Sequence record: MN850568.1
DNA from: Escherichia phage altidsur
Direction: 5' to 3' (one strand)
Length of the DNA stretch: 42,197 nucleotides
Part shown: positions 3,404 to 36,059 of the stretch, in pieces
How the letters are laid out: every line of letters starts with the position of its first letter
How positions within the stretch are numbered: the first letter of the stretch is position 1
Position numbers and translations under genes: made by a program
Notes under the pieces: generated by a model
The model's database searches: none
What the model saw: the letters and a program-made list of their open reading frames with translations, nothing else
Told to the model about the DNA's origin: nothing

Positions 3404-5775
3404 TGGCGAACAGCTATAACACCTACGTGGCGAACGGGACGCAGACTGCGTTCCTCGTCACCTTTGAGCAGCGCGTATTTACGCAGATTCAGGTGTACCT
3501 CAACTCCACACTCGTGACGGAAGGGTACACCTACAACTCTGTGACCAAACAGATTGTCTTCTCGACAGCACCTGTCGCCGGGACAATCGTACGCCTGCAA
3601 CGCTACACCTCTGAGACGCTGCTTAACAAGTTTGGTCAGGACGCTGCCTTCACGGGCAGCAACCTCGACGAGAACTTCGAGCAGATTCTGTTTAAGGCTG
3701 AGGAAACTCAGGAGGCATGGCTCGCGCCGCTCGACCGAGCAGTCCGTGTCCCGAACTCCGAAGTCTCCATCAACGCATTACCGAACGTCGCTGGCCGCCG
3801 TAACAAGGCATTGGGCTTTGACAACGCTGGTCAGCCGTTCATGATTCCTCTGGTTGATATTCCTGACTCAGCTCTGGCCATTGCGCTGGCGATGAATGAC
3901 GGCGGTAAGTGGATTGGCACCCTTGGCGGTGGTACGTTCCTCGACCGTCAGGACACTGTGTGTCTGTCAGAGTTCACCAACAACACTGGCTATGCGTCCA
4001 TCGCTGCCGCTGTGCAGGCATGTTTCGACTATGCCAAGGCAAACGGTAAGGTTGTGGATGCACGCGGCTGGGAAGGCACTGTGGACTCCACGGTGACAAT
4101 GGATGGTATTGAGGTCGTCGGCGGTACGTGGCACGGTAAGGCAGATATTCGACTGATTGACTCAACGTTCCGCAACTTCAAGGCATCCACTGTGCGTGTG
4201 GCGTACTGGGGTGGCAAGGTTCGCATTGCTGACTATGAGTTCACCAGTGCGCCGAGCAACTCCAAAGTTACGTCAATCCTGTTCCAAGGCAACATCGCCG
4301 GGGGCAGCTACGTAATCGAGAACGGTATCCACCGTAACGGCAAGTTCGGTATTCTGCAACAGGGTACTGGTGAGGCTATCACCAATGGCATTATCCGCAA
4401 CGTCGCTATGATGGACATGATGGGTGATGGCATTGAGATGAACGTAATCAACAAGCACTATGACGGTGGCCTGCTGATTGAGAACATCTACCTTGAGAAT
4501 ATCGACGGCACCAACGCACCTATTCCACTGTCCAACTGGGGCATCGGTATCGGTATCGCTGGTCAAGGCCCGTTCGGTTGGGACGCTGCTGAGACTCAGT
4601 ACGCGAAGAACGTGACCGTGCGTAACGTCCATGCTCCGCGCGGTGTACGTCAGGTTGTCCACTTCGAAGTTACCCGCGACAGCGTGTGCGAGAACGTGGT
4701 CTGTAACCCTGACCTGTCCGTGTCCACTGGTACTGGCCTGTCTGCTGCTGGCGTAATCACGTACGGCTGCAAACGCATGACCATTGATGGCGTGGTTGGT
4801 GAGCCTATCAACACAGGTGCAACCTCCCCTAACGATATTCGTCTCGTTATGCTGGAGTGGGGTGCTAACCAAGCAGGTGCTGGCGGTACGCCGGGTGCTG
4901 CGTGTCCATCTTTTGACATGACCGTGCGCAACGTGCAGACCCGCACCGGGCGCTTCTATGCAGGTGTCGGCTCCGACGACGATAACACCAACACGTACCA
5001 CCTTGAAAACATTCACTGTTACAAGATGACGCTGTTCGGTGTGGCTACTCTGCTGAACATGACCAACGTTACTGGTGTCGTATTCGACGCAGTTGGCGAT
5101 GACTCCAGCGGCGGTACTTCGTCCAACGGTGTGTACCCGCGTAAGAAGACGTGCCTTAACATGGTGAACGTGAACTTCTACGGGCCGGGTATGACCGAGG
5201 GTGCGCTGTACAGTAAGGCTCGGTACTCGGACATCAGTACGCTGAACTCCAACGTCCGTGCAATCCCGTACACCAACATCCAAGGTAACGTTGGCGCTAT
5301 CCTGTCTCCAGTGAACCGCATCCTGACGCTGCCAAACAACTTGGCAACGCTGACAGGTGCTGAGTTCCCGACTGGTAAAGAGTTCCCGGAAGGTACTGTC
5401 CTGCTGAAAACTGATGGTTCTGGTGGTAACTTCATCGTCACCCAGTTTGGTGCCTACATCCCTAATGATGGCAACAACTTCAAGGTGCGTGCTGCTGCCG
5501 CTGGCCAGACGTATCTGGAGCAGAACCTGACTCCGGCTGGTACTCAGGCATCCACCTCGTGGCTGTACCACAAACCAATCTCTGCTGGCACCCGGTTGAA
5601 CATCCCCGGCGCTGGGCCGAGTGGCGGTACACTGACTGTGACGGTGGTGCGTGCTCCATATCAGGTGGACAACAACATCGGGAACCCGGTGCGCATCGAC
5701 ATCACACCGCCGCTGGTGACTGCTATCCCTGCCGGGACGCAGCTCGCCGCGACTTATCCGGTGGCTTACATCTAA
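3403..5775 (+). CDS. Tail fiber/tailspike protein with T7 gp17-like N-terminal anchor and a beta-helix (depolymerase-like) body
   Basis: The first ~150 aa resemble the conserved N-terminal adaptor of T7-type tail fibers by eye; the rest is Gly/Asn/Thr/Val-rich with repeated G-x-hydrophobic strands typical of right-handed beta-helix spikes; position after the internal virion proteins. Confidence 0.75.
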   Translation: MANSYNTYVANGTQTAFLVTFEQRVFTQIQVYLNSTLVTEGYTYNSVTKQIVFSTAPVAGTIVRLQRYTSETLLNKFGQDAAFTGSNLDENFEQILFKAEETQEAWLAPLDRAVRVPNSEVSINALPNVAGRRNKALGFDNAGQPFMIPLVDIPDSALAIALAMNDGGKWIGTLGGGTFLDRQDTVCLSEFTNNTGYASIAAAVQACFDYAKANGKVVDARGWEGTVDSTVTMDGIEVVGGTWHGKADIRLIDSTFRNFKASTVRVAYWGGKVRIADYEFTSAPSNSKVTSILFQGNIAGGSYVIENGIHRNGKFGILQQGTGEAITNGIIRNVAMMDMMGDGIEMNVINKHYDGGLLIENIYLENIDGTNAPIPLSNWGIGIGIAGQGPFGWDAAETQYAKNVTVRNVHAPRGVRQVVHFEVTRDSVCENVVCNPDLSVSTGTGLSAAGVITYGCKRMTIDGVVGEPINTGATSPNDIRLVMLEWGANQAGAGGTPGAACPSFDMTVRNVQTRTGRFYAGVGSDDDNTNTYHLENIHCYKMTLFGVATLLNMTNVTGVVFDAVGDDSSGGTSSNGVYPRKKTCLNMVNVNFYGPGMTEGALYSKARYSDISTLNSNVRAIPYTNIQGNVGAILSPVNRILTLPNNLATLTGAEFPTGKEFPEGTVLLKTDGSGGNFIVTQFGAYIPNDGNNFKVRAAAAGQTYLEQNLTPAGTQASTSWLYHKPISAGTRLNIPGAGPSGGTLTVTVVRAPYQVDNNIGNPVRIDITPPLVTAIPAGTQLAATYPVAYI

Positions 5776-10111: not shown

Positions 10112-10320
10112 GGGCTATCGAAAGCTGGAGCATTGAACAGGCCGTGGGGAGCAATACCCCCGGCTTGAAAATTGCATGTTTATAGTTGCCCCTCCCTCGA
10201 CCCAAATGACCGCGCGTACCCCCATGACGTGTGCGCGGATTAGCCTCGCGACGTGCGCGATATTGCCTCGCGTGTGCTGCGCGGCGCGTCAAGAGGATTG
10301 CCTGCGTGCGGTATAGCTCG

Positions 10321-10710
10321 TGCGTGTCGCGTTTCACTATCGCCGCGCGGTGCTGTCCTGCTGGCTGGCTGTGTGCCTGCTGTGTGGGCTATCGGTGGCG
10401 GTGTGGTGCTGTCCTATTGGGGACGCTCTGCGCTGGCTGCGTGGTGCTGCTGGCTGCGCGTGGTCGGTCGGGTATCTGTCTCTTTTCGTCGTGGTGTGTG
10501 GTGCTGGTGTGTAGCGGTGTGCGGCGTGGTGCTGCCGTCCTGCTGTGTGGTGTGCTGGTCTACTGTCTGCGCCTGCCAGCTCTGCGCGTCATGCTCTGCT
10601 ACTGTCTCTTACTGTCCTACTGCCTTCACTGTCTGCCGTCTGTCAGTCCTACGGTCTGCCATCCGTCATCCGTTCGGCGCTCGCTTGTTTCGGCTGCGCC
10701 GCGCTCGCTC
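10321..10710. other. A-depleted (G/T/C-only) strand-asymmetric tract; candidate genome-terminus / terminal-repeat-associated region
   Basis: By manual count roughly twenty A residues in ~390 nt on the + strand. Because every stop codon contains A, all three + frames stay open, which produces the overlapping Cys/Arg-rich ORFs in the track. Sits between the last late gene and the early promoters. Confidence 0.6.
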
Positions 10711-10730
10711 TGCGTATCTAGCGATACTAT

Positions 10731-10752
10731 ATCACTATAGACACTTTCATAA
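10731..10752 (-). promoter_or_regulatory. Copy of the 22-bp phage promoter-like motif ATGAAAGTGTCTATAGTGATAT, inverted; + strand reads ATATCACTATAGACACTTTCAT
   Basis: Reverse complement is identical over 22 bp to 31211-31232; contains the CTATAG core reminiscent of the CACTATAG core of T7/SP6-type promoters. Confidence 0.45.
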
Positions 10753-10877: not shown

Positions 10878-10907
10878 TTGCCAATCTGTTTTGGTTTATG
10901 CTGTAAT
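10878..10907 (+). promoter_or_regulatory. Host sigma70-type promoter candidate (TTGCCA-N18-TGTAAT)
   Basis: -35-like TTGCCA at 10878-10883 and the same TATGCTGTAAT -10 box as the next two promoters. Confidence 0.35.
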
Positions 10908-10984
10908 TCATCTCGCCGGACAACACAGCGTTAACGTGTTGGACGGTGTAGGACGGTAACACTGCTCTTTAACAATCTGGTGTG

Positions 10985-11013
10985 TTGACAAGGCAAGCTC
11001 ACTATGCTGTAAT
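10985..11013 (+). promoter_or_regulatory. Host sigma70-type early promoter (TTGACA-N17-TGTAAT)
   Basis: Perfect -35 TTGACA at 10985-10990, 17-nt spacer, TATGCTGTAAT box; one of three identically spaced copies upstream of the early region. Confidence 0.55.
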
Positions 11014-11121
11014 GCTTCCACGTCAGCCAGCAAGCTAAACAGTCATTGATAAAGACGTTAAAACACACGTAGGCAAGCTGGTACGGTTTAACTATCTCAG
11101 AACGGGCGCTGATTAAATCGG

Positions 11122-11150
11122 TTGACAGGATGAAATGAGTATGCTGTAAT
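11122..11150 (+). promoter_or_regulatory. Host sigma70-type early promoter (TTGACA-N17-TGTAAT)
   Basis: TTGACA at 11122-11127, 17-nt spacer, TATGCTGTAAT box at 11140-11150. Confidence 0.55.
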
Positions 11151-11201
11151 GCACACCAGATTGACAGGGCAGCAAGCCAGTCAGTCAGAAGTAAAAAGTA
11201 G

Positions 11202-11230
11202 TTGACACGCTGAATACGATGTGATGTAAT
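11202..11230 (+). promoter_or_regulatory. Host sigma70-type early promoter (TTGACA-N17-TGTAAT)
   Basis: TTGACA at 11202-11207, 17-nt spacer, GATGTAAT box at 11223-11230. Confidence 0.5.
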
Positions 11231-11687
11231 CAGCACCGAGTTGAAAGGTTGCAAAACAACCTGCTCTGAGTGAACGTAAACTGGCCACGTAGTGTCACGG
11301 TCTCATGGGTATCCGGCGCAGCTAGGAACTGGTGAGAGGCATCGCTGAAAAGCAACGGTATTGCAACAATGCTAACGCCGTAGGGGTAGTGCCTGATGCA
11401 AGGGAACGGAGAAGCGCGATAGACACAGCGCAGTATCAGTAAAATCCCAAACGTCTTATAAGGCGCGGAGTGAAGCGGGTAGGTAGGCAAGCTGGTAACG
11501 GTGAGCCGGACTGCTGGAGGACTCCTGAGAGTGGATGCAGACAATATCCACGGCGCGAAATGGGCGGGGCGATTTTTCAGGGTAGTGAATCCGACAAGCC
11601 AATCAATGCCACTTAGTGCAACATGTACGGCGCGTCACAATGGGTTCACTATCCACCTGAAAATAGCCAACAACTGGAGAAATAACT

Positions 11688-12080
11688 ATGTACCGTATCT
11701 ATGCAAGCGCATATCGTCAGGGCAACGCTGAATGTGTTAATCTGGCGCTTCATTGCAAGGCACTGCGAACGGTGCAGGATATGTTCGGAGTGGTTCCGGT
11801 CACACTGACAGGCAAGTTCGACAATGCGTACGAGTTAAGCATGGTCTTTCCTGTCGATGGAATCTACGAAATCAGGCAGGCTGTTAAGCTGTTCTGTAAA
11901 GCATTCGAACAGGACTGCATCATGGTAGTGACCAAAGATGATGATGCAATCTTCATGGATTCACCATATCCGGGCAAGCCTGCTGGCAAGTTCGTCAGCA
12001 AGACTGAGGCCGAAATGGAAGCCGGGCAGCACACCGCTTGGACTTACGATGGTGAACAATTTTGGGTAGTGGAGGCGTAA
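11688..12080 (+). CDS. Early hypothetical protein, 130 aa
   Basis: First ORF after the ~450-nt leader; GGAGA RBS 8 nt upstream of the ATG. Confidence 0.55.
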   Translation: MYRIYASAYRQGNAECVNLALHCKALRTVQDMFGVVPVTLTGKFDNAYELSMVFPVDGIYEIRQAVKLFCKAFEQDCIMVVTKDDDAIFMDSPYPGKPAGKFVSKTEAEMEAGQHTAWTYDGEQFWVVEA

Positions 12081-12217: not shown

Positions 12218-12748
12218 ATGACAACTGCAATCAAATACACTAGCTTCAAAGACGCTGCCGCTCTGGACAAGGCCATTGAGTCTACCGTCAAGAAGGCGCA
12301 CTCACTCCGTAGCGACATTCAGAACGTTGCGGTCGGCATCATCCTGCACGCTTACCATCACGGCGACTACACTCGTGCTGAATCCTTCGTGAATCAGCTC
12401 GGTCAGGGTATCCGTGGTAAGGCGCTGGTAGACTGGTTCGTCAAGTTCGGCGGCCTGATTATCGGTGAGAACGGCGGGAAACAGGGCTTCATTGGCTGGC
12501 AGGGCGCTGAGTATATCAAGGCGAACATTGACACGGCCAAAGCCACTATGTGGTGGAGCCTGAAACCTGAGCAGGCGTTCGAAGGTTTCGACCTGCAAGA
12601 TGCGCTCGAAAAGCTGATTGCCAAAGCTGAGAAGGCGCTGAACAAGGCGAACGAACTGCGCCACGAAGGGAAGGACGAAGACGCGAACAAGGTTGTCGTT
12701 CCGCAGAACGTGCTGGATGCACTGCGCAAGGCTAAACAAGCTGCGTGA
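12218..12748 (+). CDS. Early hypothetical protein, 176 aa (Lys/Ala-rich C-terminus)
   Basis: ORF with AAGGGG RBS before the internal ATG at 12218; the track ORF begins 33 nt earlier at 12185. Confidence 0.6.
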   Translation: MTTAIKYTSFKDAAALDKAIESTVKKAHSLRSDIQNVAVGIILHAYHHGDYTRAESFVNQLGQGIRGKALVDWFVKFGGLIIGENGGKQGFIGWQGAEYIKANIDTAKATMWWSLKPEQAFEGFDLQDALEKLIAKAEKALNKANELRHEGKDEDANKVVVPQNVLDALRKAKQAA

Positions 12749-12755
12749 TTACTGA

Positions 12756-12778
12756 CAGGCCATTCACTGAGTGGCCTG
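12756..12778 (+). promoter_or_regulatory. Intergenic RNA hairpin (CAGGCC-loop-GGCCTG); candidate RNase III/processing or attenuation site
   Basis: 6-bp perfect inverted repeat with 11-nt loop between two early genes. Confidence 0.35.
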
Positions 12779-12813
12779 AATTGTAACCACACATCAACCC
12801 AAAGGGGCATAGC

Positions 12814-13092
12814 ATGACTTTTAAAGCTGTAGACACTCGCACCAAACCGCTGGCACACTCTTTCCCGGCAGCACTGATGGGAGGCCAGCTCACTGGCACC
12901 ATCGTAGCGACCATTGACGACACTGGCCGCATCGACATCAAGGAAGGCGCGGAGAACCTGCCGCACTTTGCTCAGAGCCGTGACATTCTGGACGAGTCCG
13001 GCGACTTCCTGTGGCTGGTCGATGAAGACCAAGGCACCGAATGGGATGGCACCGTTCGCTGGGGTCGTCAGGAAGACTTCGAAGTGGCATAA
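12814..13092 (+). CDS. Small acidic early protein, 92 aa
   Basis: ORF preceded by a hairpin and AAAGGGG RBS; Asp/Glu-rich with acidic C-terminus (EDFEVA). Confidence 0.6.
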   Translation: MTFKAVDTRTKPLAHSFPAALMGGQLTGTIVATIDDTGRIDIKEGAENLPHFAQSRDILDESGDFLWLVDEDQGTEWDGTVRWGRQEDFEVA

Positions 13093-13106
13093 GCCGGGAT
13101 TGACTC

Positions 13107-13130
13107 AAGCCAGTGTCAAGGCGCTGGCTT
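13107..13130 (+). promoter_or_regulatory. Intergenic RNA hairpin (AAGCCAG-loop-CTGGCTT), part of the repeated hairpin + GGCAAT..TGCC module
   Basis: 7-bp perfect stem with 10-nt loop, followed by GGCAATTCTGCCCCAACC, RBS and ATG. Confidence 0.4.
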
Positions 13131-13168
13131 TATGGCAATTCTGCCCCAACCTATTCGGAGTATTATCC

Positions 13169-13450
13169 ATGACTATCAAAACTGTAACTGCATTCGTGAC
13201 CAAGAAAGCTGGCGAACTGTATGGCTTCGCTGTTTCCCTGAACGAAGGCCAGTACCTGCACCACGTTCGTGAAGAAGGCGAGCCGACTGAGGCCGTAGCC
13301 ATCCTCGAAACGTTGCAGGGTATCCCGCTGCCACACGAGTTCATCATCATGCTCGCTGAGCAGGACGAAGACGACCTGCGACTGCGCCACGGCGACGACC
13401 TGACGATTGAAGAAATCGGCACGTTCGAAGCAGAAGTAGACGACGAGTAA
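13169..13450 (+). CDS. Small acidic early protein, 93 aa
   Basis: Internal ATG of track ORF 12914..13450, chosen because the upstream part overlaps the preceding gene; GGAG RBS; acidic C-terminus (EAEVDDE). Confidence 0.6.
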   Translation: MTIKTVTAFVTKKAGELYGFAVSLNEGQYLHHVREEGEPTEAVAILETLQGIPLPHEFIIMLAEQDEDDLRLRHGDDLTIEEIGTFEAEVDDE

Positions 13451-13460
13451 GCGTTGTCCT

Positions 13461-13484
13461 GCTGCATCCTTGCGAGGGTGCAGC
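13461..13484 (+). promoter_or_regulatory. Intergenic RNA hairpin (GCTGCATCC-TTGCGA-GGGTGCAGC) of the repeated module
   Basis: 9-bp stem with one G-U wobble and loop TTGCGA, followed by GGCAATAATGCC box. Confidence 0.4.
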
Positions 13485-13521
13485 GTGGCAATAATGCCTT
13501 ACTCAATCTGAGGGTTTTAAT

Positions 13522-13863
13522 ATGAGCATCAAACTTGTAATCCTGACCAACATCGCAGCTTCCGCATTCGGCGCAGACGTACCGGAAGAAGCGCGTACTG
13601 CTGAGTGGGTGGCGTTCACCTCCGACGACGAGGGCTACCTGATTGCAGGCCGCAACCGCGACGGCGACTCTGCCGAGGACATCGTGGCGCACTTCGACGC
13701 TGACGAAGGCTTCGCTGGGTTCGCAGCTTCTGGCCTGCCGCTGGAACTGTTCGGCATGATGAACGGCGTGCCTTTCATCGACCGTGAGAAGCTGGGCGCA
13801 GACGTGTCTGTCACCGAGCTGAAAGTGTACGGCGAAGAAGATGACGTAGACTTCTCTGCGTGA
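13522..13863 (+). CDS. Small acidic early protein, 113 aa
   Basis: ORF after the conserved module (ACTCAATCTGAGGGTTTTAATATG); strongly Asp/Glu-rich. Confidence 0.6.
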   Translation: MSIKLVILTNIAASAFGADVPEEARTAEWVAFTSDDEGYLIAGRNRDGDSAEDIVAHFDADEGFAGFAASGLPLELFGMMNGVPFIDREKLGADVSVTELKVYGEEDDVDFSA

Positions 13864-13869
13864 TACCTT

Positions 13870-13893
13870 ACTGCCTCGTTGCGACGGGGCAGT
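13870..13893 (+). promoter_or_regulatory. Intergenic RNA hairpin (ACTGCCTCG-TTGCGA-CGGGGCAGT) of the repeated module
   Basis: 9-bp stem with one G-U wobble and the same TTGCGA loop as 13461-13484, followed by GGCAATCATGCC box. Confidence 0.4.
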
Positions 13894-13928
13894 GCGGCAA
13901 TCATGCCCCAACCTACTGAGGATTTAAT

Positions 13929-14204
13929 ATGTCCACTATCAATGTGTTTTCCCTGAACAACGGCGGTCTGGCTTTCATCGTTGGCGAGACTGTTGACAAT
14001 GCACCTTCACTGGGTGTGCAGCCGAAGCCGGACGCAAGCCATGACGAAGTGATTGGCGAAGTGCGCGAGGCGCTGGAAGACCTCGGCGGTATGCTGATTG
14101 CCATTCAGGGTGGCAAGCTGTCGGTTGAAAAGCTGAATGCACTGGAGCCTCGCTTCATCACCAGCTTTGAAGCTGACAACGTAGACGCGGCTGACTTCGA
14201 GTAA
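13929..14204 (+). CDS. Small acidic early protein, 91 aa
   Basis: ORF after the conserved module (CCAACCTACTGAGGATTTAATATG); acidic C-terminus. Confidence 0.6.
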   Translation: MSTINVFSLNNGGLAFIVGETVDNAPSLGVQPKPDASHDEVIGEVREALEDLGGMLIAIQGGKLSVEKLNALEPRFITSFEADNVDAADFE

Positions 14205-14239
14205 GCCGACCACTAACCCACCAGTAACAGGAGAACAAC

Positions 14240-14476
14240 ATGGCTAAGTTTGAACTGGTACGCTTCACCGACCCGAACGATGGTGAAGTAACCTATGCAC
14301 AATTCGCTGACGACCGCCAGCAGGTGGCAGTGTACACCAGCAAGACCTTTGCTTTCGAACAGTTCGGTGAGGAACTGCACTTTGACAGCGTGAGCTACGT
14401 GCTGCTGTCCGGTGGTGAGTACGCCGATGCAGTGCAGGCCGCACTGGATGAAGGCGAAGTCATCAAGACTGCGTGA
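14240..14476 (+). CDS. Small acidic early protein, 78 aa
   Basis: ORF with AGGAGA RBS; Asp/Glu-rich. Confidence 0.6.
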   Translation: MAKFELVRFTDPNDGEVTYAQFADDRQQVAVYTSKTFAFEQFGEELHFDSVSYVLLSGGEYADAVQAALDEGEVIKTA

Positions 14477-14483
14477 TTTCTGT

Positions 14484-14507
14484 CAGCCCATCCATAGCGG
14501 TGGGCTG
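14484..14507 (+). promoter_or_regulatory. Intergenic RNA hairpin (CAGCCCA-loop-TGGGCTG) of the repeated module
   Basis: 7-bp perfect stem with 10-nt loop, followed by GGCAATCATGCC box, RBS and ATG. Confidence 0.4.
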
Positions 14508-14544
14508 TAGGGCAATCATGCCACAACTAACTGAGGGTTTTACC

Positions 14545-14829
14545 ATGGCTAAAGTAACTGCATACTACTCCGCACAAGAGAAAGACATCGTGGCTGTTGT
14601 TGGTGACGGCTTCGAAGAAGGCAACTATGCGCTGTGCATTTCCGGCTGCAAAGAAGTACCGAAGCTGAACACGGTTGATGATGCTGTGGCTGCGCTGCCG
14701 TCGCTGCAAGCTGACATCGAACGCATGGGTGAGCTGGCCTTCCTGCTGCACGGTGGTTCGCTGAACGCTACTGCTTCGGTTGACATGCCTGCCAAGGGCT
14801 ACGAAGAAGTCGGTAGCTTCGAGGTCTAA
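14545..14829 (+). CDS. Small acidic early protein, 94 aa
   Basis: Internal ATG of track ORF 14473..14829, directly after the conserved module (ACTGAGGGTTTTACCATG). Confidence 0.6.
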   Translation: MAKVTAYYSAQEKDIVAVVGDGFEEGNYALCISGCKEVPKLNTVDDAVAALPSLQADIERMGELAFLLHGGSLNATASVDMPAKGYEEVGSFEV

Positions 14830-14831
14830 GC

Positions 14832-15167
14832 ATGGCGTTGCATCCGGTCAAGGTATTCCGTGGGCCTGACATTACGGATGGGCAAGACGTGGCGGTACTG
14901 CTGTACCGCCTGCCCGATGGTCAGGAAGGGCTGGTCGTCATCGACCAGATTGAAATCTTAGGGCAGCAGATGTTGACGAGTGAGGCGAGCGACGAGCAAA
15001 TCATCGAACGCTTCAAGGCGTACGCCGGGCGCAGGCCATTCATCATCGACCTGCTGAACGAGCTGCACTACAGCGCCGCGCCGCTGGCTATCCAGACGTG
15101 GCTCAAGATTCTCACTCCCATCTACGAGGGTGAGATGTATCTGTTTGGTATTGACAACGAGGAATAA
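14832..15167 (+). CDS. Early hypothetical protein, 111 aa
   Basis: Tightly packed ORF on the same strand, 2 nt after the upstream stop. Confidence 0.55.
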   Translation: MALHPVKVFRGPDITDGQDVAVLLYRLPDGQEGLVVIDQIEILGQQMLTSEASDEQIIERFKAYAGRRPFIIDLLNELHYSAAPLAIQTWLKILTPIYEGEMYLFGIDNEE

Positions 15168-15445: not shown

Positions 15446-15688
15446 ATGGCACGTTCTATTCTGATTCGCATCATCGGCCACACCGCACAGCCGTCCCATT
15501 TCTCCGGCGCAGTGCGTGACACTACCATCGGTAAAGAGTACGCCGCTCTGCTGGTTGAAGCTGGCGAAGAAATCCCGGACGGCTGGGAAACTGACGAGCA
15601 AGGCATCGCGTTTGTTGATGACGTGGGTGATGACTGCTTCGCATACAGCTCGGCGCACCTCGGACACACCATCGAAATCGTCGAGTGA
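15446..15688 (+). CDS. Small early protein, 80 aa; paralog-like to 15170..15415
   Basis: AGAGGG RBS; tandem arrangement with a similar C-terminus. Confidence 0.6.
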   Translation: MARSILIRIIGHTAQPSHFSGAVRDTTIGKEYAALLVEAGEEIPDGWETDEQGIAFVDDVGDDCFAYSSAHLGHTIEIVE

Positions 15689-15744
15689 TAAGCTACAGCC
15701 TCTGCTTGCGGGGGCTGTGTCATTATCAAACGAGCGAGGTGAGC

Positions 15745-16995: not shown

Positions 16996-17149
16996 GCTGG
17001 CCGTAGTCAAATCACCCACCGGATTATTCTGGTGGGTTGTTAATAAACTCCAGCCGAATAAACCTTTGGCTGTGCGTGATACAAAGTGGGAAGCCGAGAG
17101 TAAACTCGAAGACCTGCAACGCATAGTGCGTAATGCTATTCCGGCGTAG
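16979..17149 (+). CDS. Small hypothetical protein, 56 aa
   Basis: Internal ATG of track ORF 16958..17149, overlapping the upstream stop by 17 nt; weak support. Confidence 0.3.
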   Translation: MQRDTKLAVVKSPTGLFWWVVNKLQPNKPLAVRDTKWEAESKLEDLQRIVRNAIPA

Positions 17150-17183
17150 TCATCTACTCATGCCTGTTATTATTTAGCAGGCA

Positions 17184-17205
17184 TTATGAAGGTGTCTATA
17201 TTGGC
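17184..17205 (+). promoter_or_regulatory. Phage promoter-like motif copy (TTATGAAGGTGTCTATATTGG), preceded by hairpin 17160-17184
   Basis: Matches the 22-bp motif at 31211-31232 in 17 of 20 core positions; perfect 7-bp stem ATGCCTG/CAGGCAT immediately upstream; precedes the gene at 17223. Confidence 0.4.
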
Positions 17206-28749: not shown

Positions 28750-31182
28750 GTGGACTTACTTGCTGAGCAGATTCGACTTGAAGAAGAAGCACGAGCCAGA
28801 CACCGCGAGGGCTGGCTGGACAATATCAAAGAAGCCATGGCTAGTGGCCGGGCCGGGTCGGTGCCGTTGCTCCAGCGTATGATGGTAGAGGCGTATCCTC
28901 TTGTCGAAGCTGCGATGCAAGAAACCCTGAACGAAACGACCCGTGGGTACGGTGCGCAGTACCGGACGTACATGCGTGAGATTGGCACCAAGGCGTGTGC
29001 CTCTCTTGCACTGAGCATGGCGGTGTCCGGTGCTGCGTCGGAGCAGGCGGTGCTGAGTCTGCTTAAGAGTATGGGTAAAGCGCTGATGGCTGAGGTGGTG
29101 TATCTCCGGGCGAAGCAGACCGGGCCACAGCAGGCAGCGTACATGGAGCGCGTGAAGCAGGACGTTAAGAAGTCCCGGTCGAAGTCAGCCAACCACGTCT
29201 ACAACAAAGCGCGTGCGTCGGCGGCGAACGTTGGGGTCGAGATTGATGTGCTGCCGCAGCGTGCTCTGATTACCATTGGCAAGCTGATGATGAAATGCGT
29301 GGAGCCAACTGGGTTGGTGGCTACGATTCGCGTCGGCGGCAACCAACGTCAGCGCGGTACGGCACACTTCGCACTGCATGAGGATGTGCTGGCTACGATG
29401 AACGACTGGCTGGACATGCCGCGTGCTGATGGCATGTGCTGCCCACCGTTGATTATCCCACCGAAGCAGATTGCACCGAACGGTCGCAGCGGTATGTGGC
29501 ACTCGGATGGGCAGGCGGCGATGTACCGGGTAATGAGTCGCATGAACCACAAAGGGTATCGTGCATTGAACGTTGACCCGACCCCTGTTATAGAGCCGTG
29601 TATGATGCTCAGCAGCGTTCCGTACCGAATTAACCCAATGGTACTGGAGTTCCTGAGAACGAACCGTACAGGCGTTATGGGGCTGCCTGTGCCGCCTCGT
29701 GAGCCTAAGCTCCCATTCACCATCCCGGCTGGTGTCAGCTTCGCGCAGTACATCAGCAAGTTCCCACCAGAGATGCAGCAGCAGATGGATGCCGAGGCTC
29801 ATGAGTACAAGGTTAAGACTCGCTTGTATTACAATGAGTTGCGTAAGTTCACGTCGCAGATGCTGGCGCTGAATGGTGCAGTCAAAGAGGCAGAGCGCTA
29901 TGCGCATTATGACCGGGTATACCTCCCGACCTACGCTGATACACGGGGCCGAATTTATTATTCTTCGACCCTTAACCCTCAGTCCATCGACGCAGTGCGA
30001 GCGCTGCTCGAACTTGCTGAACCAGTGGCTCTCGGAAGTGAGGGGTTATTCTGGCTCAAGGTACATGTTGCGAATTGCTTCGGCTACGACGCGACAGACT
30101 TCGAAGACCGGGCGGCGTGGACGGACAAGACACTCCCCCGACTACGTGAGGCGTGCCGTCTTCCAGAGGCATTTGATTCGTTCTGGTCAGAGGCCGATAG
30201 CCCTATCAGCGCGTGGGCTGCATCTGTTGAACTCATTCGCGCTATCGACTCAGGAAATCCTGCGGCTTATCCCTGCCGAGTGGTTACACAATGGGACGCT
30301 ACCTGTTCAGGATTACAGCACCTCAGTGCGATGTTACGAGATGAGGTTGGAGGTGCTGCTGTCAATCTTATCGACAGCGTGGGAAGAAAAGCAGACATAT
30401 ATCTCAAGACGGCAGCAGCGGCGATGCAGGCTCTTGAAGAAAGTGAGGCAGCAGCGCCGACGCAAATGGGTACGTGGCTTGTTAGCATCGGCATCGTTCG
30501 GGCTATGGCCAAGAAGCCAGTGATGACCTACGTGTACGGGGCAACCCGGCATGGTATGGTTGATTACTACTGCCTGTATCTGCGTGAGAACCGGGTCAAG
30601 CTGCCGGACGGCAAGAGCCTGCTGGAGTGTGCGCAGTTCATCGCAGAGTTCATGTGGAACGCTATCCCTCGCGTTGTGCCGAAGGCGGCTGAGCTGATGG
30701 CATGGTTGCAGGCTATCGCAGTTGAGGCGGCAGCCAACGGCGAGTACGTGGAAATCATCGCACCGTCAGGGTTGCGGGTGGTTAACCTGTACCAAGCCAG
30801 TAAGGAGACGATGCTCAACAACATCAACCTCATGGGTATCCACAGCATTAAGCTGCGTGAGTATCTGGACAAGCCGGACAGCCGGAAGTGTGCTGCTGCG
30901 ATTGCTCCGAATTTCGTACACGCTATGGATGCCAGCCACATGATGAAGGTGCTGTGGGAGATGTGGAACAACGGGGTGTACATGGTATCCATCCATGACT
31001 CGTTCGGTGTTGCGGCGGCACATGCTGGTCTGCTGCATAAGGTCATTCGTGAAAAGTTCGTACAGATGTATGAGCAACATGACCCAATTCAACAGCTTGC
31101 GGTAAGATACAATGCTGTTGCACCAGAACGGGGTAATCTGGACATCCAGCTTGTGAAACAATCAAGCAAGTTTTTCTGCTAA
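28750..31182 (+). CDS. DNA-directed RNA polymerase, T7-like single-subunit, 810 aa
   Basis: Motif WDATCSGLQHLSAMLRD (compare T7 DGSCSGIQHFSAMLRD) and IHDSFG catalytic motif; GTG start; located directly upstream of the structural module. Confidence 0.9.
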   Translation: MDLLAEQIRLEEEARARHREGWLDNIKEAMASGRAGSVPLLQRMMVEAYPLVEAAMQETLNETTRGYGAQYRTYMREIGTKACASLALSMAVSGAASEQAVLSLLKSMGKALMAEVVYLRAKQTGPQQAAYMERVKQDVKKSRSKSANHVYNKARASAANVGVEIDVLPQRALITIGKLMMKCVEPTGLVATIRVGGNQRQRGTAHFALHEDVLATMNDWLDMPRADGMCCPPLIIPPKQIAPNGRSGMWHSDGQAAMYRVMSRMNHKGYRALNVDPTPVIEPCMMLSSVPYRINPMVLEFLRTNRTGVMGLPVPPREPKLPFTIPAGVSFAQYISKFPPEMQQQMDAEAHEYKVKTRLYYNELRKFTSQMLALNGAVKEAERYAHYDRVYLPTYADTRGRIYYSSTLNPQSIDAVRALLELAEPVALGSEGLFWLKVHVANCFGYDATDFEDRAAWTDKTLPRLREACRLPEAFDSFWSEADSPISAWAASVELIRAIDSGNPAAYPCRVVTQWDATCSGLQHLSAMLRDEVGGAAVNLIDSVGRKADIYLKTAAAAMQALEESEAAAPTQMGTWLVSIGIVRAMAKKPVMTYVYGATRHGMVDYYCLYLRENRVKLPDGKSLLECAQFIAEFMWNAIPRVVPKAAELMAWLQAIAVEAAANGEYVEIIAPSGLRVVNLYQASKETMLNNINLMGIHSIKLREYLDKPDSRKCAAAIAPNFVHAMDASHMMKVLWEMWNNGVYMVSIHDSFGVAAAHAGLLHKVIREKFVQMYEQHDPIQQLAVRYNAVAPERGNLDIQLVKQSSKFFC

Positions 31183-35010: not shown

Positions 35011-36003
35011 ATGGCTGATAACGCTTATACCCCGAACCAGTTCCGTCCACACTGGGGTGGCGCGAACTCTGATAACGACATTCACCTTGAGGTGTATGAC
35101 CGTGATGTTCAAACCCAGTTCATCTACAACTCCATCTTCCGTTCCGGTCTGACCAACTTCAAGTCTGTGGCTAACCAGTCCAACACTTGGCGTGGCGACC
35201 GTCTCGGCTCTGTGACCGTTAAAGGTCGTCGCTCTGGTGAGGCGCTGGACAACCAGCCAGTTCGCTCTGAGAAACTGATTGTCACTGTGGATACCGTGTC
35301 TTACATCCGTATCCCGATTGACTATCAGGACGACTGGACTGCGCCGGACTTCCGCGCTGAGCTGACCCGTAACATGGGTACTGCACAGGCGAAGGCGTTC
35401 GACCAAGCGCACGTCATCCAGCTCCAGAAGTCTGCTGACTTCGTGCCTCCGGCTTCTCTGGCTGGCGCGTTCAACGCAGGTATCAAGGAGCAGGTCACTC
35501 TGACTGGCACCGTGGCATCTGAGGAAGATGATGCGTCTGCGCTGGTACACGGCCACAAGAAAGCTATCGAGGCGTTCATCCGTCGCGATGCCGACCTTGG
35601 CCGACTGGTTACGCTGATTGACCCGGCGTGGTTCAGCATTCTGCTGGAGCACAAGAAACTGATGAACGTTGAGTTCACTGGTGGTCGTGGTGTCAACGAC
35701 TTCGCAATGCGTCGTGTTGCGTACGTCAACGGTATCCGCATCATCGAGAGCAACGCGTTCCCGCAGGCGGCAATCACTGACCACATCCTCGGCCCTGACT
35801 TCAACGTCACCGCCGACGAGATTCAGCGCAAGATGATTATCTTCGACCCGTCTCTGGCTCTGGTCACTGTCGAAGCCCAGCCGCTGTTCAACCGCGTATG
35901 GGATGACGAACGTGAACTGACCAACGTTCTGGATAGCTTCCACATGTACACCGTGGGCCAGCGTCGTCCAGACGTGGTTGCTGTAGTTACCACTGAGACC
36001 TAA
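35011..36003 (+). CDS. Major capsid protein, 330 aa
   Basis: Strong RBS (AAGGATTTTCC-ATG); size and position match T7 gp10-type capsid; followed by a terminator hairpin. Confidence 0.85.
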   Translation: MADNAYTPNQFRPHWGGANSDNDIHLEVYDRDVQTQFIYNSIFRSGLTNFKSVANQSNTWRGDRLGSVTVKGRRSGEALDNQPVRSEKLIVTVDTVSYIRIPIDYQDDWTAPDFRAELTRNMGTAQAKAFDQAHVIQLQKSADFVPPASLAGAFNAGIKEQVTLTGTVASEEDDASALVHGHKKAIEAFIRRDADLGRLVTLIDPAWFSILLEHKKLMNVEFTGGRGVNDFAMRRVAYVNGIRIIESNAFPQAAITDHILGPDFNVTADEIQRKMIIFDPSLALVTVEAQPLFNRVWDDERELTNVLDSFHMYTVGQRRPDVVAVVTTET

Positions 36004-36013
36004 TGGTAAACTC

Positions 36014-36036
36014 GAAGCCCTTCTCTGAGGGGCTTC
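36014..36036 (+). terminator. Stem-loop terminator candidate after the capsid gene (GAAGCCC-loop-GGGCTTC)
   Basis: 7-bp perfect inverted repeat with 9-nt loop 11 nt after the capsid stop, followed by a T-containing stretch; analogous in position to T7 T-phi. Confidence 0.45.
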
Positions 36037-36059
36037 TATGATTATCACTGGGAGGTTTT

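What the first reader, a model, noticed from the sequence alone, without database searches (positions are those of the whole stretch)
12749..14829. Array of small acidic early proteins, each preceded by a repeated hairpin + GGCAATnATGCC module
Six consecutive genes of 78-113 codons encode Asp/Glu-rich proteins with acidic C-termini. Four of the intergenic spacers share a module: a 7-9 bp hairpin (two with identical TTGCGA loops and a G-U wobble at the same stem position), a GGCAAT(A/C/T)nTGCC box, then a conserved stretch ending in the RBS and ATG. The DNA module is better conserved than the proteins, which points to a regulatory or RNA-processing element such as RNase III sites or middle promoters. 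Small acidic early proteins in T7-like phages include the DNA mimic Ocr, so these are candidate anti-restriction or anti-defence factors.
Basis: partly seen in the sequence, partly recalled or inferred. Interest (0 to 1): 0.65.

Follow-up and report, generated by a model that had tools for sequence, protein, structure and literature searches.

The report
T7-type RNase III sites between early genes
The repeated hairpin-plus-box modules between these small acidic phage genes are most likely cutting sites for the host enzyme RNase III, of the kind long known in phage T7, here in a subclass with an unusually conserved lower stem; what the acidic proteins do is still unknown.

Summary
The window is a Bonnellvirus coliphage, 98.5% identical to aldrigsur over the region and with one protein identical to altidsur_18. 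Six consecutive early genes (78-113 aa) encode proteins of pI 4.05-4.32. Four spacers carry GGCAATNNTGCC (4 exact copies; 0.09 expected).

The box is not a free-standing motif. It is the 3' strand of a lower stem that pairs with GCG(UGAU), often the last codon plus stop codon of the upstream gene. With the 9-11 bp upper hairpin this gives a helix of about 20 bp.

A covariance model built only from five T7 and five T3 RNase III sites hits the window at M0 (E 2.8e-5), M1, M4 and M5, at the first phage promoter, and after the capsid gene. All hits are on the + strand; the early-region hits start at stop codons. M2 and M3 do not score. Covariation supports both helices.

The box is not the phage promoter and not a sigma-70 promoter or terminator. 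The box subclass recurs in Limelightvirus, Phimunavirus and Bucovirus, with an invariant lower stem and a freely covarying upper stem.

The proteins have no known homologues or folds, so an anti-defence role is untested. In mellemsur, recombination between two modules deleted five genes. Cleavage itself was not tested.

The parts
10985..11230 (+). Three strong sigma-70-type early promoters (TTGACA, 17 nt, TGTAAT with an upstream TGn) at 10985-11013, 11122-11150 and 11202-11230, plus a weaker one at 10878-10908. They are the inferred start of the early polycistronic transcript that carries the array.
   Evidence: Sequence read and custom scan. These are the only such sites on the + strand between 10700 and 17300. 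The tool scan missed them because position 2 of the -10 hexamer is G.
12743..12794 (+). Module M0, an RNase III-type signal without the box. Lower stem is UG-UUAC / GUAA-CA and includes the stop codon of g0 (12746-12748). Upper hairpin is CAGGCCAUUC / GAGUGGCCUG (12755-12777).
   Evidence: Hit by the T7/T3-only covariance model at 31.8 bits, E 2.8e-5. It shares ACAGG.CAU...GUGGCCUGAAU with the T7 R1 site. Fold.
12814..13092 (+). g1, 92 aa, pI 4.32, net charge -10.
13094..13146 (+). Module M1. Lower stem is (C/G)CGGGAUUG / CAAUUCUG(C) plus CU/GG. Upper hairpin is 13107-13130. Box GGCAATTCTGCC is at 13134-13145. The flanks GACUCAAG...CUUUAU are the same as in T7 R0.5 and R1.1.
   Evidence: Covariance model hit at 18.5 bits, E 0.074 in the window; orthologues reach E 0.0002-0.005.
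13169..13450 (+). g2, 93 aa, pI 4.30, net charge -16.
   Evidence: only one 50%-identity cluster of homologues among 1.8 billion representatives
13451..13498 (+). Module M2. Lower stem is GCGUUGU-CC / GG--AUAAUGC. Upper hairpin is 13460-13485 with a UGCG tetraloop. Box GGCAATAATGCC is at 13487-13498.
   Evidence: Not found by the T7/T3 model at E <= 10. Assigned by its shared architecture and box.
13522..13863 (+). g3, 113 aa, pI 4.05, net charge -17.
13858..13907 (+). Module M3. The 5' strand of the lower stem is GCGUGAU (last codon of g3, the stop codon 13861-13863, then U) and pairs with AUCAUGC of the box; CC pairs with GG. Upper hairpin is 13869-13894 with a UGCG tetraloop. Box GGCAATCATGCC is at 13896-13907.
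   Evidence: Not found by the T7/T3 model.
13929..14204 (+). g4, 91 aa, pI 4.14, net charge -11. A weak, distant relative of g6.
   Evidence: (hhalign probability 62%, E 7.7e-5)
14240..14476 (+). g5, 78 aa, pI 4.10. It is preceded by a 35-nt spacer with no module.
14471..14523 (+). Module M4. Lower stem is GCGUGAUU-UCU / GGG-C-AAUCAUGC and includes the g5 stop codon (14474-14476). Upper hairpin is CAGCCCAUC / GGUGGGCUG. Box is at 14511-14522. This type is conserved across genera.
   Evidence: (13.2 bits, E 1.7)
14545..14829 (+). g6, 94 aa, pI 4.25. Identical to altidsur_18. Matches phrog_32287 (function unknown).
15686..15728 (+). Module M5, outside the finding and without a box. Lower stem is UGAUAA / UUAUCA and starts at the g9 stop codon. 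Upper hairpin is ACAGCCUCUG / CGGGGGCUGU.
   Evidence: Covariance model hit at 18.1 bits, E 0.097. Sequence read.
17147..17200 (+). RNase III-like stem-loop at the end of the early region. It overlaps the first + strand phage-RNAP promoter (ATGAAGGTGTCTATATTGG, about 17186-17204). T3 has the same arrangement at R1.1 and R1.3.
   Evidence: (20.5 bits, E 0.023)
36001..36052 (+). Strong T7-type RNase III-like site immediately after the major capsid gene.
   Evidence: Covariance model hit at 31.5 bits, E 3.3e-5. The same position is hit in two relatives.

Best explanation
The modules are RNA elements that act in the early polycistronic mRNA. They are processing signals of the T7/T3 type, cut by host RNase III.

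Host RNA polymerase starts at three or four strong promoters at about 10.9-11.2 kb. It transcribes the SAM hydrolase gene, g0 and the array of small acidic genes as one long RNA (inferred from promoter positions and from the lack of promoters or terminators inside the array).

Behind most genes the RNA folds into an interrupted helix of about 20 bp. It has a lower stem of 7-11 bp whose 5' strand starts at or just after the stop codon, small internal loops or bulges, and an upper hairpin of 9-11 bp. This is shown by folding and covariation.

In M1-M4 the 'GGCAATNNTGCC box' is the 3' strand of the lower stem. Its two variable positions change together with their partners: UC with GG, AA with UU, CA with UG.

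By analogy with T7 R0.3, R0.5, R1 and R1.1, RNase III would cut 12-13 nt 3' of the loop. That places the cut at the first nucleotides of the box (the T7 cut positions are recalled from memory). The upstream mRNA would keep a protective 3' hairpin. The downstream mRNA would start at pGGCAAU..., about 35-40 nt before its start codon, with a free Shine-Dalgarno sequence.

Cleavage, its exact position, and whether one or both strands are cut are inferred, not shown.

Because the modules are repeated they also act as substrates for recombination: mellemsur lost g1-g5 by a crossover between M0 and M4.

The proteins are lineage-restricted, acidic, early alpha/beta proteins of unknown function. Host take-over or anti-defence is a reasonable guess from their position next to the SAM hydrolase gene, and nothing more.
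For: (1) Identity and layout. The window is a Bonnellvirus with its RNAP gene late in the middle region. The array lies between the sigma-70 promoters and the first + strand phage promoter.

(2) Direct resemblance to T7 sites. The T7 intergenic regions that hold R0.3, R0.5, R1, R1.1 and R1.3 fold into the same two-stem shape. M0 reads ACAGGCCAU..GUGGCCUGAAU against T7 R1 ACAGGUCAU..GUGGCCUGAAU. M1 reads GACUCAAGCC..GGCUUUAU against T7 R0.5/R1.1 GACUCAAGG..CCUUUAU. The T3 record annotates the homologous stem-loops as 'RNase III recognition site'.

(3) Independent test. Covariance model R1 was built only from 5 T7 and 5 T3 sites. With filters off it hits the window at M0 (E 2.8e-5), after the capsid gene (3.3e-5), at 17147 (0.023), M1 (0.074), M5 (0.097) and M4 (1.7). 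All are on the + strand. In aldrigsur coordinates the early-region hits (M0, M1, M4, M5 and the promoter site) begin within 0-6 nt of an annotated stop codon. Relatives hold further early-region sites at 38-43 bits, E about 1e-7. Two whole relative genomes give hits only at the orthologous places.

(4) Covariation. On the R1-aligned hits, 94.5% of cells pair against 65.6% in shuffles and 33-45% with slid partners, and 14 of 18 pairs show compensatory changes, in both helices. The M2/M3 upper stems pair in 98.9% of cells, with 4 of 11 pairs compensatory. Eleven M4-type modules from four or more genera pair in 100% of 209 cells, with 7 of 8 upper-stem pairs compensatory.

(5) Minimum-free-energy folds of 25 distinct box modules all pair the box with the upstream GCG... 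strand.

(6) Literature. [quoted passage not shown] Internal loops restrict cutting to one bond and leave protective 3' hairpins, and E. coli substrates typically span two helical turns (PMC1540722).

(7) Recombination. The mellemsur spacer is a hybrid of M0 and M4.
Against: No cleavage data exist for any of these phages, and none could be generated here.

M2 and M3 are not detected by the T7/T3 model at E <= 10, and M4 only at E 1.7. Their assignment rests on shared architecture plus the box. M1 and M5 are borderline in the window (E about 0.07-0.1).

The model's E-values are rough because calibration was shortened.

Alignment A6 was fitted to the model's structure, and the A9 structure was derived from these same sequences. 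Both inflate the percentage of paired cells.

The lower stem of the box type is invariant in sequence across genera, unlike the freely varying lower stems of T7/T3. A plain double-stranded RNA requirement does not explain this. It could mean that a different or additional factor recognises it.

Several modules have almost no internal loop, so the T7-style single cut that leaves a 3' hairpin is not assured.

Rfam has no family matching these elements, so there is no curated benchmark.
Confidence: 0.72

Rival explanations
1. The modules are structured RNA elements but not RNase III substrates. One option is that they are generic mRNA-stabilising or intercistronic hairpins (REP-like) or entry sites for another nuclease such as RNase E. 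Another is that the invariant lower stem, GCGUGAUU/AAUCAUGC, is the binding site of a sequence-specific phage or host protein that controls translation or stability of each cistron.
For: The lower stem of the box type is invariant in sequence across Bonnellvirus, Limelightvirus, Phimunavirus and Bucovirus while the upper stem varies freely. That pattern is typical of sequence-specific recognition. M2 and M3 do not score with the T7/T3 model. Once freed from its partner strand, the box folds into its own 4-bp hairpin.
Against: M0 and M1 share long sequence stretches with sites mapped in T7. Box-type and box-less modules occupy equivalent positions and have the same geometry. The total helix length is about 20 bp, the substrate size typical for E. 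coli RNase III (PMC1540722). No candidate RNA-binding protein was identified among the early genes.
Confidence: 0.17
2. The modules exist mainly as recombination cassettes, that is, portable junctions that let small early genes be swapped, duplicated or deleted. This resembles the promoter-stem-loop (PeSL) cassettes I recall from T4-type phages. Any RNA function would be secondary.
For: mellemsur carries an exact M0/M4 hybrid hairpin and lacks g1-g5. Gene content between modules differs among relatives: megetsur and HHU8 have a 64-aa gene instead of g1; glasur, forsur and ROV85 have a g4 paralogue after M4 instead of g6; Lidtsur has a g3-like gene first. The same M4-type junction follows different genes in different genera.
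Against: Recombination needs only sequence identity. It does not explain compensatory changes that preserve pairing in the upper stem, the fixed position at stop codons, or the similarity to T7 RNase III sites. The modules carry no promoter, unlike PeSLs. Other deletions did not use the modules: the ROV85 g0-g4 fusion and the forsur deletion inside g3.
Confidence: 0.06
3. The box is a DNA-level signal: a promoter (phage RNAP, sigma-70 or sigma-54), an operator for a dimeric DNA-binding protein (GGCA-N4-TGCC is an inverted repeat), or, together with the hairpin, a transcription terminator.
For: The box is an imperfect palindrome. It resembles the GG...GC layout of sigma-54 promoters. It precedes every gene it serves.
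Against: The phage promoter consensus is different (ATGAARGTGTCTATAKTG), and no late gene carries the box. No sigma-70-like hexamer pair lies in the array. The GG-to-GC spacing is 3 nt shorter than the fixed sigma-54 spacing (read from the sequence; the consensus is from established knowledge). There is no U-tract after the hairpins, and no terminator was predicted in the array. The variable box positions covary with an upstream strand, which is a single-strand (RNA) property. All copies are on the transcribed strand.
Confidence: 0.04

Closest known systems
RNase III processing signals of coliphages T7 and T3 (R0.3, R0.5, R1, R1.1, R1.3)
   Same: They sit in the spacers of a host-RNAP-transcribed early polycistron, on the coding strand, starting at or near the stop codon and followed by a Shine-Dalgarno sequence and ATG. 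They have the same two-stem anatomy: lower stem, internal loop, and a roughly 10-bp upper hairpin with a conserved U.G wobble. M0 shares sequence blocks with T7 R1, and M1 with T7 R0.5/R1.1. The distance from loop to predicted cut is 12-13 nt. There is an extra site next to a phage promoter and another after the capsid gene.
   Different: The host phage has a phiKMV-like gene order, with the RNAP gene late. In M1-M4 the conserved part is the lower stem (GCGnnnnU / AnnnnUGC plus GG), which is invariant across genera, while the upper stem is free. In T7/T3 the base of the upper stem (AAGGUC/GUGGCCUU) is conserved and the lower stem varies. Internal loops are smaller. Sites are denser, about one per 350 nt. 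Cleavage is unproven.
PeSL (promoter-early stem-loop) cassettes of T4-type phages (recalled from memory, not read here)
   Same: Both are repeated short regulatory modules flanking many small early ORFs of unknown function in a variable region, with evidence that recombination between modules deletes or exchanges genes.
   Different: The modules here contain no promoter. The stem-loop is part of a two-stem RNase III-type structure. The phage family is different.
Ocr (T7 gp0.3) and ArdA DNA-mimic anti-restriction proteins
   Same: They are small, acidic and made early, and are encoded at the left end of an Autographiviridae genome next to an anti-restriction gene (here the SAM hydrolase at 11688-12080).
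   Different: There is no sequence or fold similarity. Net charge is -9 to -17 per 78-113 aa, which is less extreme than I recall for Ocr (memory, not computed here). The predicted folds are mixed alpha/beta, not the elongated helical Ocr shape.

Membership tests
T7/T3-type RNase III processing signal | Lies in an intergenic spacer of a polycistronic, host-RNAP-transcribed early operon, on the sense strand | tested here: met
   All modules are on the + strand and lie between annotated CDS, downstream of the sigma-70 promoters and upstream of the first + strand phage promoter.
T7/T3-type RNase III processing signal | Two stacked helices totalling about two helical turns (about 20 bp), interrupted by an internal loop or bulges and capped by a small loop | tested here: met
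   MFE folds of 25 distinct modules and of the window modules. Covariation supports both helices. Literature criterion from PMC1540722.
T7/T3-type RNase III processing signal | Scores as a family member against a profile of known sites (sequence plus structure) | tested here: inconclusive
   Model R1 (T7 and T3 sites only): M0 E 2.8e-5 and the capsid site E 3.3e-5 are met. M1 (0.074), M5 (0.097) and 17147 (0.023) are borderline. M4 is weak (1.7). M2 and M3 are not detected. Orthologues of M1 reach E 0.0002.
T7/T3-type RNase III processing signal | Cut by E. coli RNase III at a defined phosphodiester, in vivo (rnc-dependent) and in vitro | not testable with these tools
   No transcript-end data are available. 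The predicted cut at the first nucleotides of the box is by analogy with T7 (T7 cut coordinates are from my memory of Dunn and Studier 1983; the single cut in R1.1 is stated in PMC4858673).
Phage-RNAP (middle/late) promoter | Shares the phage's own promoter consensus and recurs upstream of middle and late genes | tested here: not met
   The consensus ATGAARGTGTCTATAKTG was found at three places, none resembling the box. The box is absent outside 13134-14522.
Sigma-70 promoter | -35 and -10 hexamers at 16-18 nt spacing | tested here: not met
   There are no such sites in 12.7-17.1 kb on the + strand by two scans. The TTGCGA loop has no -10 partner at a usable spacing (read from the sequence).
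Intrinsic (Rho-independent) terminator | GC-rich hairpin directly followed by a U-tract | tested here: not met
   No terminator-like site was predicted in the array. The hairpins are followed by GUGGCA, GCGGCA and UAGGGC.
Ocr/ArdA-type DNA-mimic anti-restriction protein | Sequence or fold homology to a known DNA mimic | tested here: not met
Ocr/ArdA-type DNA-mimic anti-restriction protein | Surface array of carboxylates that mimics the phosphate backbone of B-DNA; inhibits type I restriction-modification enzymes | not tested
   Only bulk charge was computed. No surface-charge analysis or assay was done.
PeSL-like mobile regulatory cassette | Module contains an early promoter plus a stem-loop and flanks small ORFs; recombination between modules shuffles the genes | tested here: inconclusive
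   A promoter is absent, so that feature is not met. Recombination between modules is documented once, in the mellemsur M0/M4 hybrid.

The most novel reading that the evidence does not exclude
The box-type modules (GCGUGAUU...variable hairpin...GGCAAUCAUGCC) are a distinct class of processing signal conserved across genera. Their invariant lower stem incorporates the upstream stop codon and carries the recognition determinants, the reverse of T7, where they sit in the upper stem.

Cleavage would then flip the RNA from the long helix to a 5'-terminal GGCA/UGCC mini-hairpin that shields the new 5'-monophosphate end of each downstream cistron.

The same repeated junctions would drive modular shuffling of an arsenal of small acidic anti-host proteins.
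Probability: 0.2. Interest if true: 0.6.

Novelty: new variant of a known kind. Interest (0 to 1): 0.42.

Why it matters
It gives a concrete, testable annotation for a dense set of conserved non-coding elements. No record I inspected annotates them in Bonnellvirus, Limelightvirus, Phimunavirus or Bucovirus, and Rfam did not detect them.

It extends the classic T7 RNase III paradigm to phages with a phiKMV-like gene order.

It reveals a subclass in which the conserved and variable halves of the signal are swapped. That is useful natural variation for understanding how E. coli RNase III chooses its sites.

For genome engineering and phage therapy, the modules mark natural cistron boundaries and recombination-prone junctions.

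The acidic early proteins remain unexplored candidates for host take-over or anti-defence functions, but nothing found here raises them above other early ORFans.

Tried and rejected
1. Sigma-70 promoter in the module (TTGCGA loop as -35, box as -10 or -35): the spacings do not fit, and two scans found none.

2. Sigma-54 promoter: the GG-to-GC spacing is 3 nt too short (read from the sequence).

3. Phage-RNAP promoter: the real consensus was identified elsewhere and is different.

4. Intrinsic terminator: there is no U-tract.

5. Rfam: no relevant hit in 10-18 kb at E <= 5.

6. Box as a stand-alone 4-bp hairpin: possible only once the 5' strand is removed. In the intact spacer the box pairs upstream.

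7. Paralogy of the six proteins: BLAST finds nothing. hhalign links only g4 to g6 (E 7.7e-5, probability 62%) and, weakly, g2 to g3 (E 0.004). A shared C-terminal [ST]FE[AV] motif was seen by eye only.

9. A genome-wide approximate 14-mer repeat search was too permissive to be useful, and an earlier version timed out.

10. The IMG/VR scan for TAGGGCAATCATGCC returned 51 loci, most of them chance matches. Only about 11 have the module context.

11. Literature searches found no description of RNase III sites in Bonnellvirus, LIMElight or phiKMV-like phages. The T7 cleavage coordinates could not be confirmed from a held paper.

12. MAFFT could not put the M2 and M3 lower stems in one register. 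Their lower stems were therefore judged from folds only.


Full report
**What the window is.** Region 12700-14900 is 98.5% identical to Escherichia phage aldrigsur and about 82% identical to other members of the genus Bonnellvirus (Autographiviridae). The window length, 42,197 bp, equals that listed for phage altidsur in PMC7552041, and g6 is 100% identical to 'altidsur_18'. The gene order follows phiKMV: SAM hydrolase gene, a block of small ORFs, primase/helicase, DNA polymerase, RNA polymerase (28750-31182), then structural genes.

**Check of the observation.** The six ORFs are real and match the annotated CDS:

| Gene | Coordinates | Length |
|---|---|---|
| g1 | 12814-13092 | 92 aa |
| g2 | 13169-13450 | 93 aa |
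| g3 | 13522-13863 | 113 aa |
| g4 | 13929-14204 | 91 aa |
| g5 | 14240-14476 | 78 aa |
| g6 | 14545-14829 | 94 aa |

- Their pI is 4.05-4.32 and net charge -9 to -17.
- The acidic run continues into g7 and g9.
- In megetsur, 7 of the 9 proteins with pI < 4.5 in the whole 54-protein proteome lie in this block. The clustering is therefore a real feature.
- GGCAATNNTGCC occurs exactly four times, all on the + strand, at 13134, 13487, 13896 and 14511. Shuffles give 0.09 on average.
- Each copy follows a hairpin and precedes a Shine-Dalgarno sequence and ATG at a nearly fixed distance.
- A fifth spacer (M0, before g1) has the hairpin but no box. The g4-g5 spacer has no module.

**What the box is.** Folding each spacer from the upstream stop codon to the end of the box shows that the box is not an independent motif. 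It is the 3' strand of a lower stem.

- In M3 and M4 the partner is GCGUGAU: the last codon, the UGA stop codon and one U. This explains the repeated CTGCGTGAT at the gene ends (family D6).
- In M1 the partner is (G/C)CGGGAUUG. In M2 it is GCGUUGU. Both lie directly after a UAA stop codon.
- The two 'variable' box positions change together with their partners: UC with GG (M1), AA with UU (M2), CA with UG (M3, M4).
- With the upper hairpin (9-11 bp; UGCG or CAAG tetraloop, or a hexaloop) the structure is an interrupted helix of about 20 bp.

**Comparison with T7 and T3.**
- The T7 intergenic regions that contain the classical RNase III sites fold into the same shape and share sequence with the modules.
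- T7 R1 reads ACAGGUCAU...GUGGCCUGAAU|AGG. M0 reads ACAGGCCAU...GUGGCCUGAAU|UGU.
- T7 R0.5/R1.1 read GACUCAAGG...CCUUUAU|GAU. M1 reads GACUCAAGCC...GGCUUUAU|GGCAAU.
- The bar marks the T7 cleavage position as I remember it from Dunn and Studier 1983 (890, 1468, 3138, 5887, 6448). I could not confirm these numbers in a held paper.
- The T3 RefSeq record annotates the homologous stem-loops as 'RNase III recognition site'.
- PMC1540722 states that E. coli substrates typically span two helical turns, and that internal loops restrict cutting to one bond and leave protective 3' hairpins.

**An independent membership test.** I aligned the five T7 and five T3 sites (A1). The consensus fold has an 8-bp lower stem, an internal loop and a 10-bp upper stem, with 9 of 18 pairs compensatory. 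I built covariance model R1 from them alone. Scanned over the whole window with filters off, it gave the hits below.

| Position | Element | Score | E-value |
|---|---|---|---|
| 12743-12794 | M0 | 31.8 bits | 2.8e-5 |
| 36001-36052 | directly after the capsid gene | 31.5 bits | 3.3e-5 |
| 17147-17200 | overlaps the first + strand phage promoter | 20.5 bits | 0.023 |
| 13094-13146 | M1 | 18.5 bits | 0.074 |
| 15686-15728 | M5, after g9 | 18.1 bits | 0.097 |
| 14471-14523 | M4 | 13.2 bits | 1.7 |

- M2 and M3 were not reported.
- All six hits are on the + strand. In aldrigsur coordinates the early-region hits (M0, M1, M4, M5 and the promoter site) begin within 0-6 nt of an annotated stop codon.
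- Only about 8% of the window is non-coding by a crude estimate. This placement is very unlikely by chance (inference).
- Relatives contain further early-region sites scoring 38-43 bits (E about 1e-7).
- Two complete relative genomes give hits only at the orthologous positions.

**Covariation.**

| Alignment | Cells paired | Controls | Compensatory pairs |
|---|---|---|---|
| A6: 23 distinct R1-aligned Bonnellvirus hits | 94.5% | 65.6% shuffled; 33-45% slid | 14 of 18, in both helices |
| A7: M2 and M3 upper stems | 98.9% | 87.7% shuffled; 42-70% slid | 4 of 11 |
| A9: 11 M4-type modules from several genera | 100% of 209 cells | 88.3% shuffled; 38-52% slid | 7 of 8 upper-stem pairs |

- Caveat: A6 is fitted to the model's structure, and the A9 structure was derived from these sequences. 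The percentages of paired cells are therefore optimistic.
- The compensatory changes themselves are plain in the raw sequences.

**Other readings tested.**
- The promoter for the phage's own RNA polymerase is ATGAA(A/G)GTGTCTATA(G/T)TG. It occurs after the RNAP gene, near the genome end in inverted orientation, and at about 17186 in the window. It is unrelated to the box, and no late gene carries the box.
- The only sigma-70-like sites between 10.7 and 17.3 kb are four promoters at 10878-11230 (TTGACA, 17 nt, TGTAAT). The array is therefore read as one early polycistron.
- No terminator-like site lies in the array.
- Rfam has no match.

**The box subclass beyond this genus.** A distant BLAST of M4 finds the module in Shigella phage Buco, Pantoea phages LIMElight and LIMEzero, Pectobacterium PhiM1-like phages, Dickeya BF25/12 and Cronobacter Peggy. 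In LIMElight, PhiM1 and Buco the sequence reads GCGTGATTTCTGT, then an unrelated hairpin, then TAGGGCAATCATGCC, then a Shine-Dalgarno sequence and ATG. An IMG/VR scan added a few more true instances among many chance matches.

Across these genera the 11-bp lower stem never varies, apart from one A-U to G.U change. The upper stem changes at 7 of 8 pairs. This is the reverse of T7/T3, where the base of the upper stem is conserved and the lower stem varies. A plain double-stranded RNA requirement does not explain it. It is the main unexplained point, and the reason I rate the box type as a variant rather than a plain member.

**Mechanism: shown versus inferred.**
- Shown: the position, the strand, the two-helix structure with covariation, and the similarity to T7/T3 sites.
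- Inferred: RNase III cuts 12-13 nt 3' of the loop, which falls at the start of the box. The upstream mRNA keeps a 3' hairpin. The downstream mRNA starts at GGCAAU.
- Speculative: once freed, the box folds into a 5'-terminal 4-bp hairpin (predicted in all four modules). Such a hairpin could protect the new 5' end.

**Recombination.** The spacer between g0 and g6 in mellemsur matches M0 up to GGCCATTCA and matches M4 from CATAGCGGTGGGCTG onward. A crossover inside the two hairpins therefore removed g1-g5. Gene content between modules also differs among relatives. Other deletions did not use the modules: the ROV85 g0-g4 fusion and the forsur deletion inside g3.

**The proteins.**
- There are no Pfam hits. 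PHROGs gives only families of unknown function.
- Homologues are confined to this phage group and are all 'hypothetical'.
- Profile comparison suggests that g4 and g6 are distant relatives (E 7.7e-5) and perhaps g2 and g3 (E 0.004).
- AlphaFold models of g4 (pLDDT 80.4) and g3 (pLDDT 81.2) are mixed alpha/beta.
- The best BFVD matches are uncharacterised early proteins of Lidtsur, LIMElight and usur.
- Their function stays open. An anti-defence role is a guess based on position and charge.

**Verdict.** The finding is real. Its RNA half is explained as T7-type RNase III processing signals (confidence about 0.7), including a new box-type subclass shared by several genera. The promoter reading is rejected. 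The protein half remains unassigned. This is a solid but not surprising result for a relative of T7, and interest is moderate.

Noticed in passing
L010 (mellemsur) 4025-4116, compared with window 12725-12815 and 14453-14547: The mellemsur spacer is an exact hybrid: M0 on the left and M4 on the right, with the crossover at CCAT(T/C)CA at the top of the hairpins. It removed g1-g5, which fits the smaller 40.8-kb genome.
   Followed up: yes
L011 (Pantoea phage ROV85) 3156-3686: One ORF fuses the N-terminal two thirds of the g0 homologue in frame to the C-terminal two thirds of a g4 homologue. This deletion did not use the modules.
   Followed up: partly
window 10878-11230: Four tandem sigma-70-type promoters share tatgcTGTAAT as an extended -10 element. 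Three of them have a perfect TTGACA at 17-nt spacing. The consensus scan tool misses them because position 2 of the -10 hexamer is G. The layout resembles T7 A1-A3.
   Followed up: partly
window 11231-11687: An untranslated leader of about 450 nt lies between the last early promoter and the SAM hydrolase start codon. The T7/T3 model found no RNase III-like site in it, unlike R0.3 of T7/T3. Its role is unknown.
   Followed up: no
window 36001-36052: A strong T7-type RNase III-like stem-loop (31.5 bits) lies directly after the major capsid gene and is conserved in relatives. T7 itself has a terminator (T-phi, from memory) after its capsid gene.
   Followed up: partly
window 17147-17204; 10727-10750 (- strand); megetsur L004 18860-18890: The promoter consensus for the phage RNA polymerase is ATGAA(A/G)GTGTCTATA(G/T)TG. 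The first + strand copy overlaps an RNase III-like hairpin. A second copy near the genome end points leftward.
   Followed up: partly
window 17010-17046: The hairpin CACCCACCGG...TGGTGGGTTG is followed by TTGTTAATAAA, just after the 170-aa ORF and inside a small annotated ORF. It may be the early terminator, the counterpart of T7 TE.
   Followed up: no
window 13494-13496 and 14518-14520, and relatives: The ATG inside the box (GGCAAT-C/A-ATGCC) is in frame with the downstream gene in M4 of all relatives and in M2 of some. This produces spurious N-terminally extended ORFs (MPQLTEGFTM...). In the window's M2 a stop codon intervenes. Probably coincidental.
   Followed up: partly
C-termini of g1, g2, g4 and g6 (window 13075-13092, 13415-13450, 14160-14204, 14805-14829): These proteins share a C-terminal motif, roughly [ST]FE[AV] followed by acidic residues (IGTFEAEVDDE, ITSFEADNVDAADFE, VGSFEV, EDFEVA). 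It hints at a common partner or a common origin. It was seen by eye only.
   Followed up: no
window about 10250-10700 (megetsur L004 40140-40500): A region of about 400 nt rich in GTG/CTG (repeated GTGCTGTGC-like units) lies in the long non-coding stretch between the endolysin gene and the early promoters, presumably near the physical genome ends. The ORFs listed there look spurious.
   Followed up: no
L007 (glasur) 4343-4394, L008 4462-4513, L009 3601-3652, L012 3327-3378: Relatives carry an extra near-consensus T7-type site (CAGUGGAUU ACUCAAGGCUG...CCUUUUUGA AAUCCAUUG, 38-43 bits) in a spacer of about 230 nt that the window lacks.
   Followed up: no
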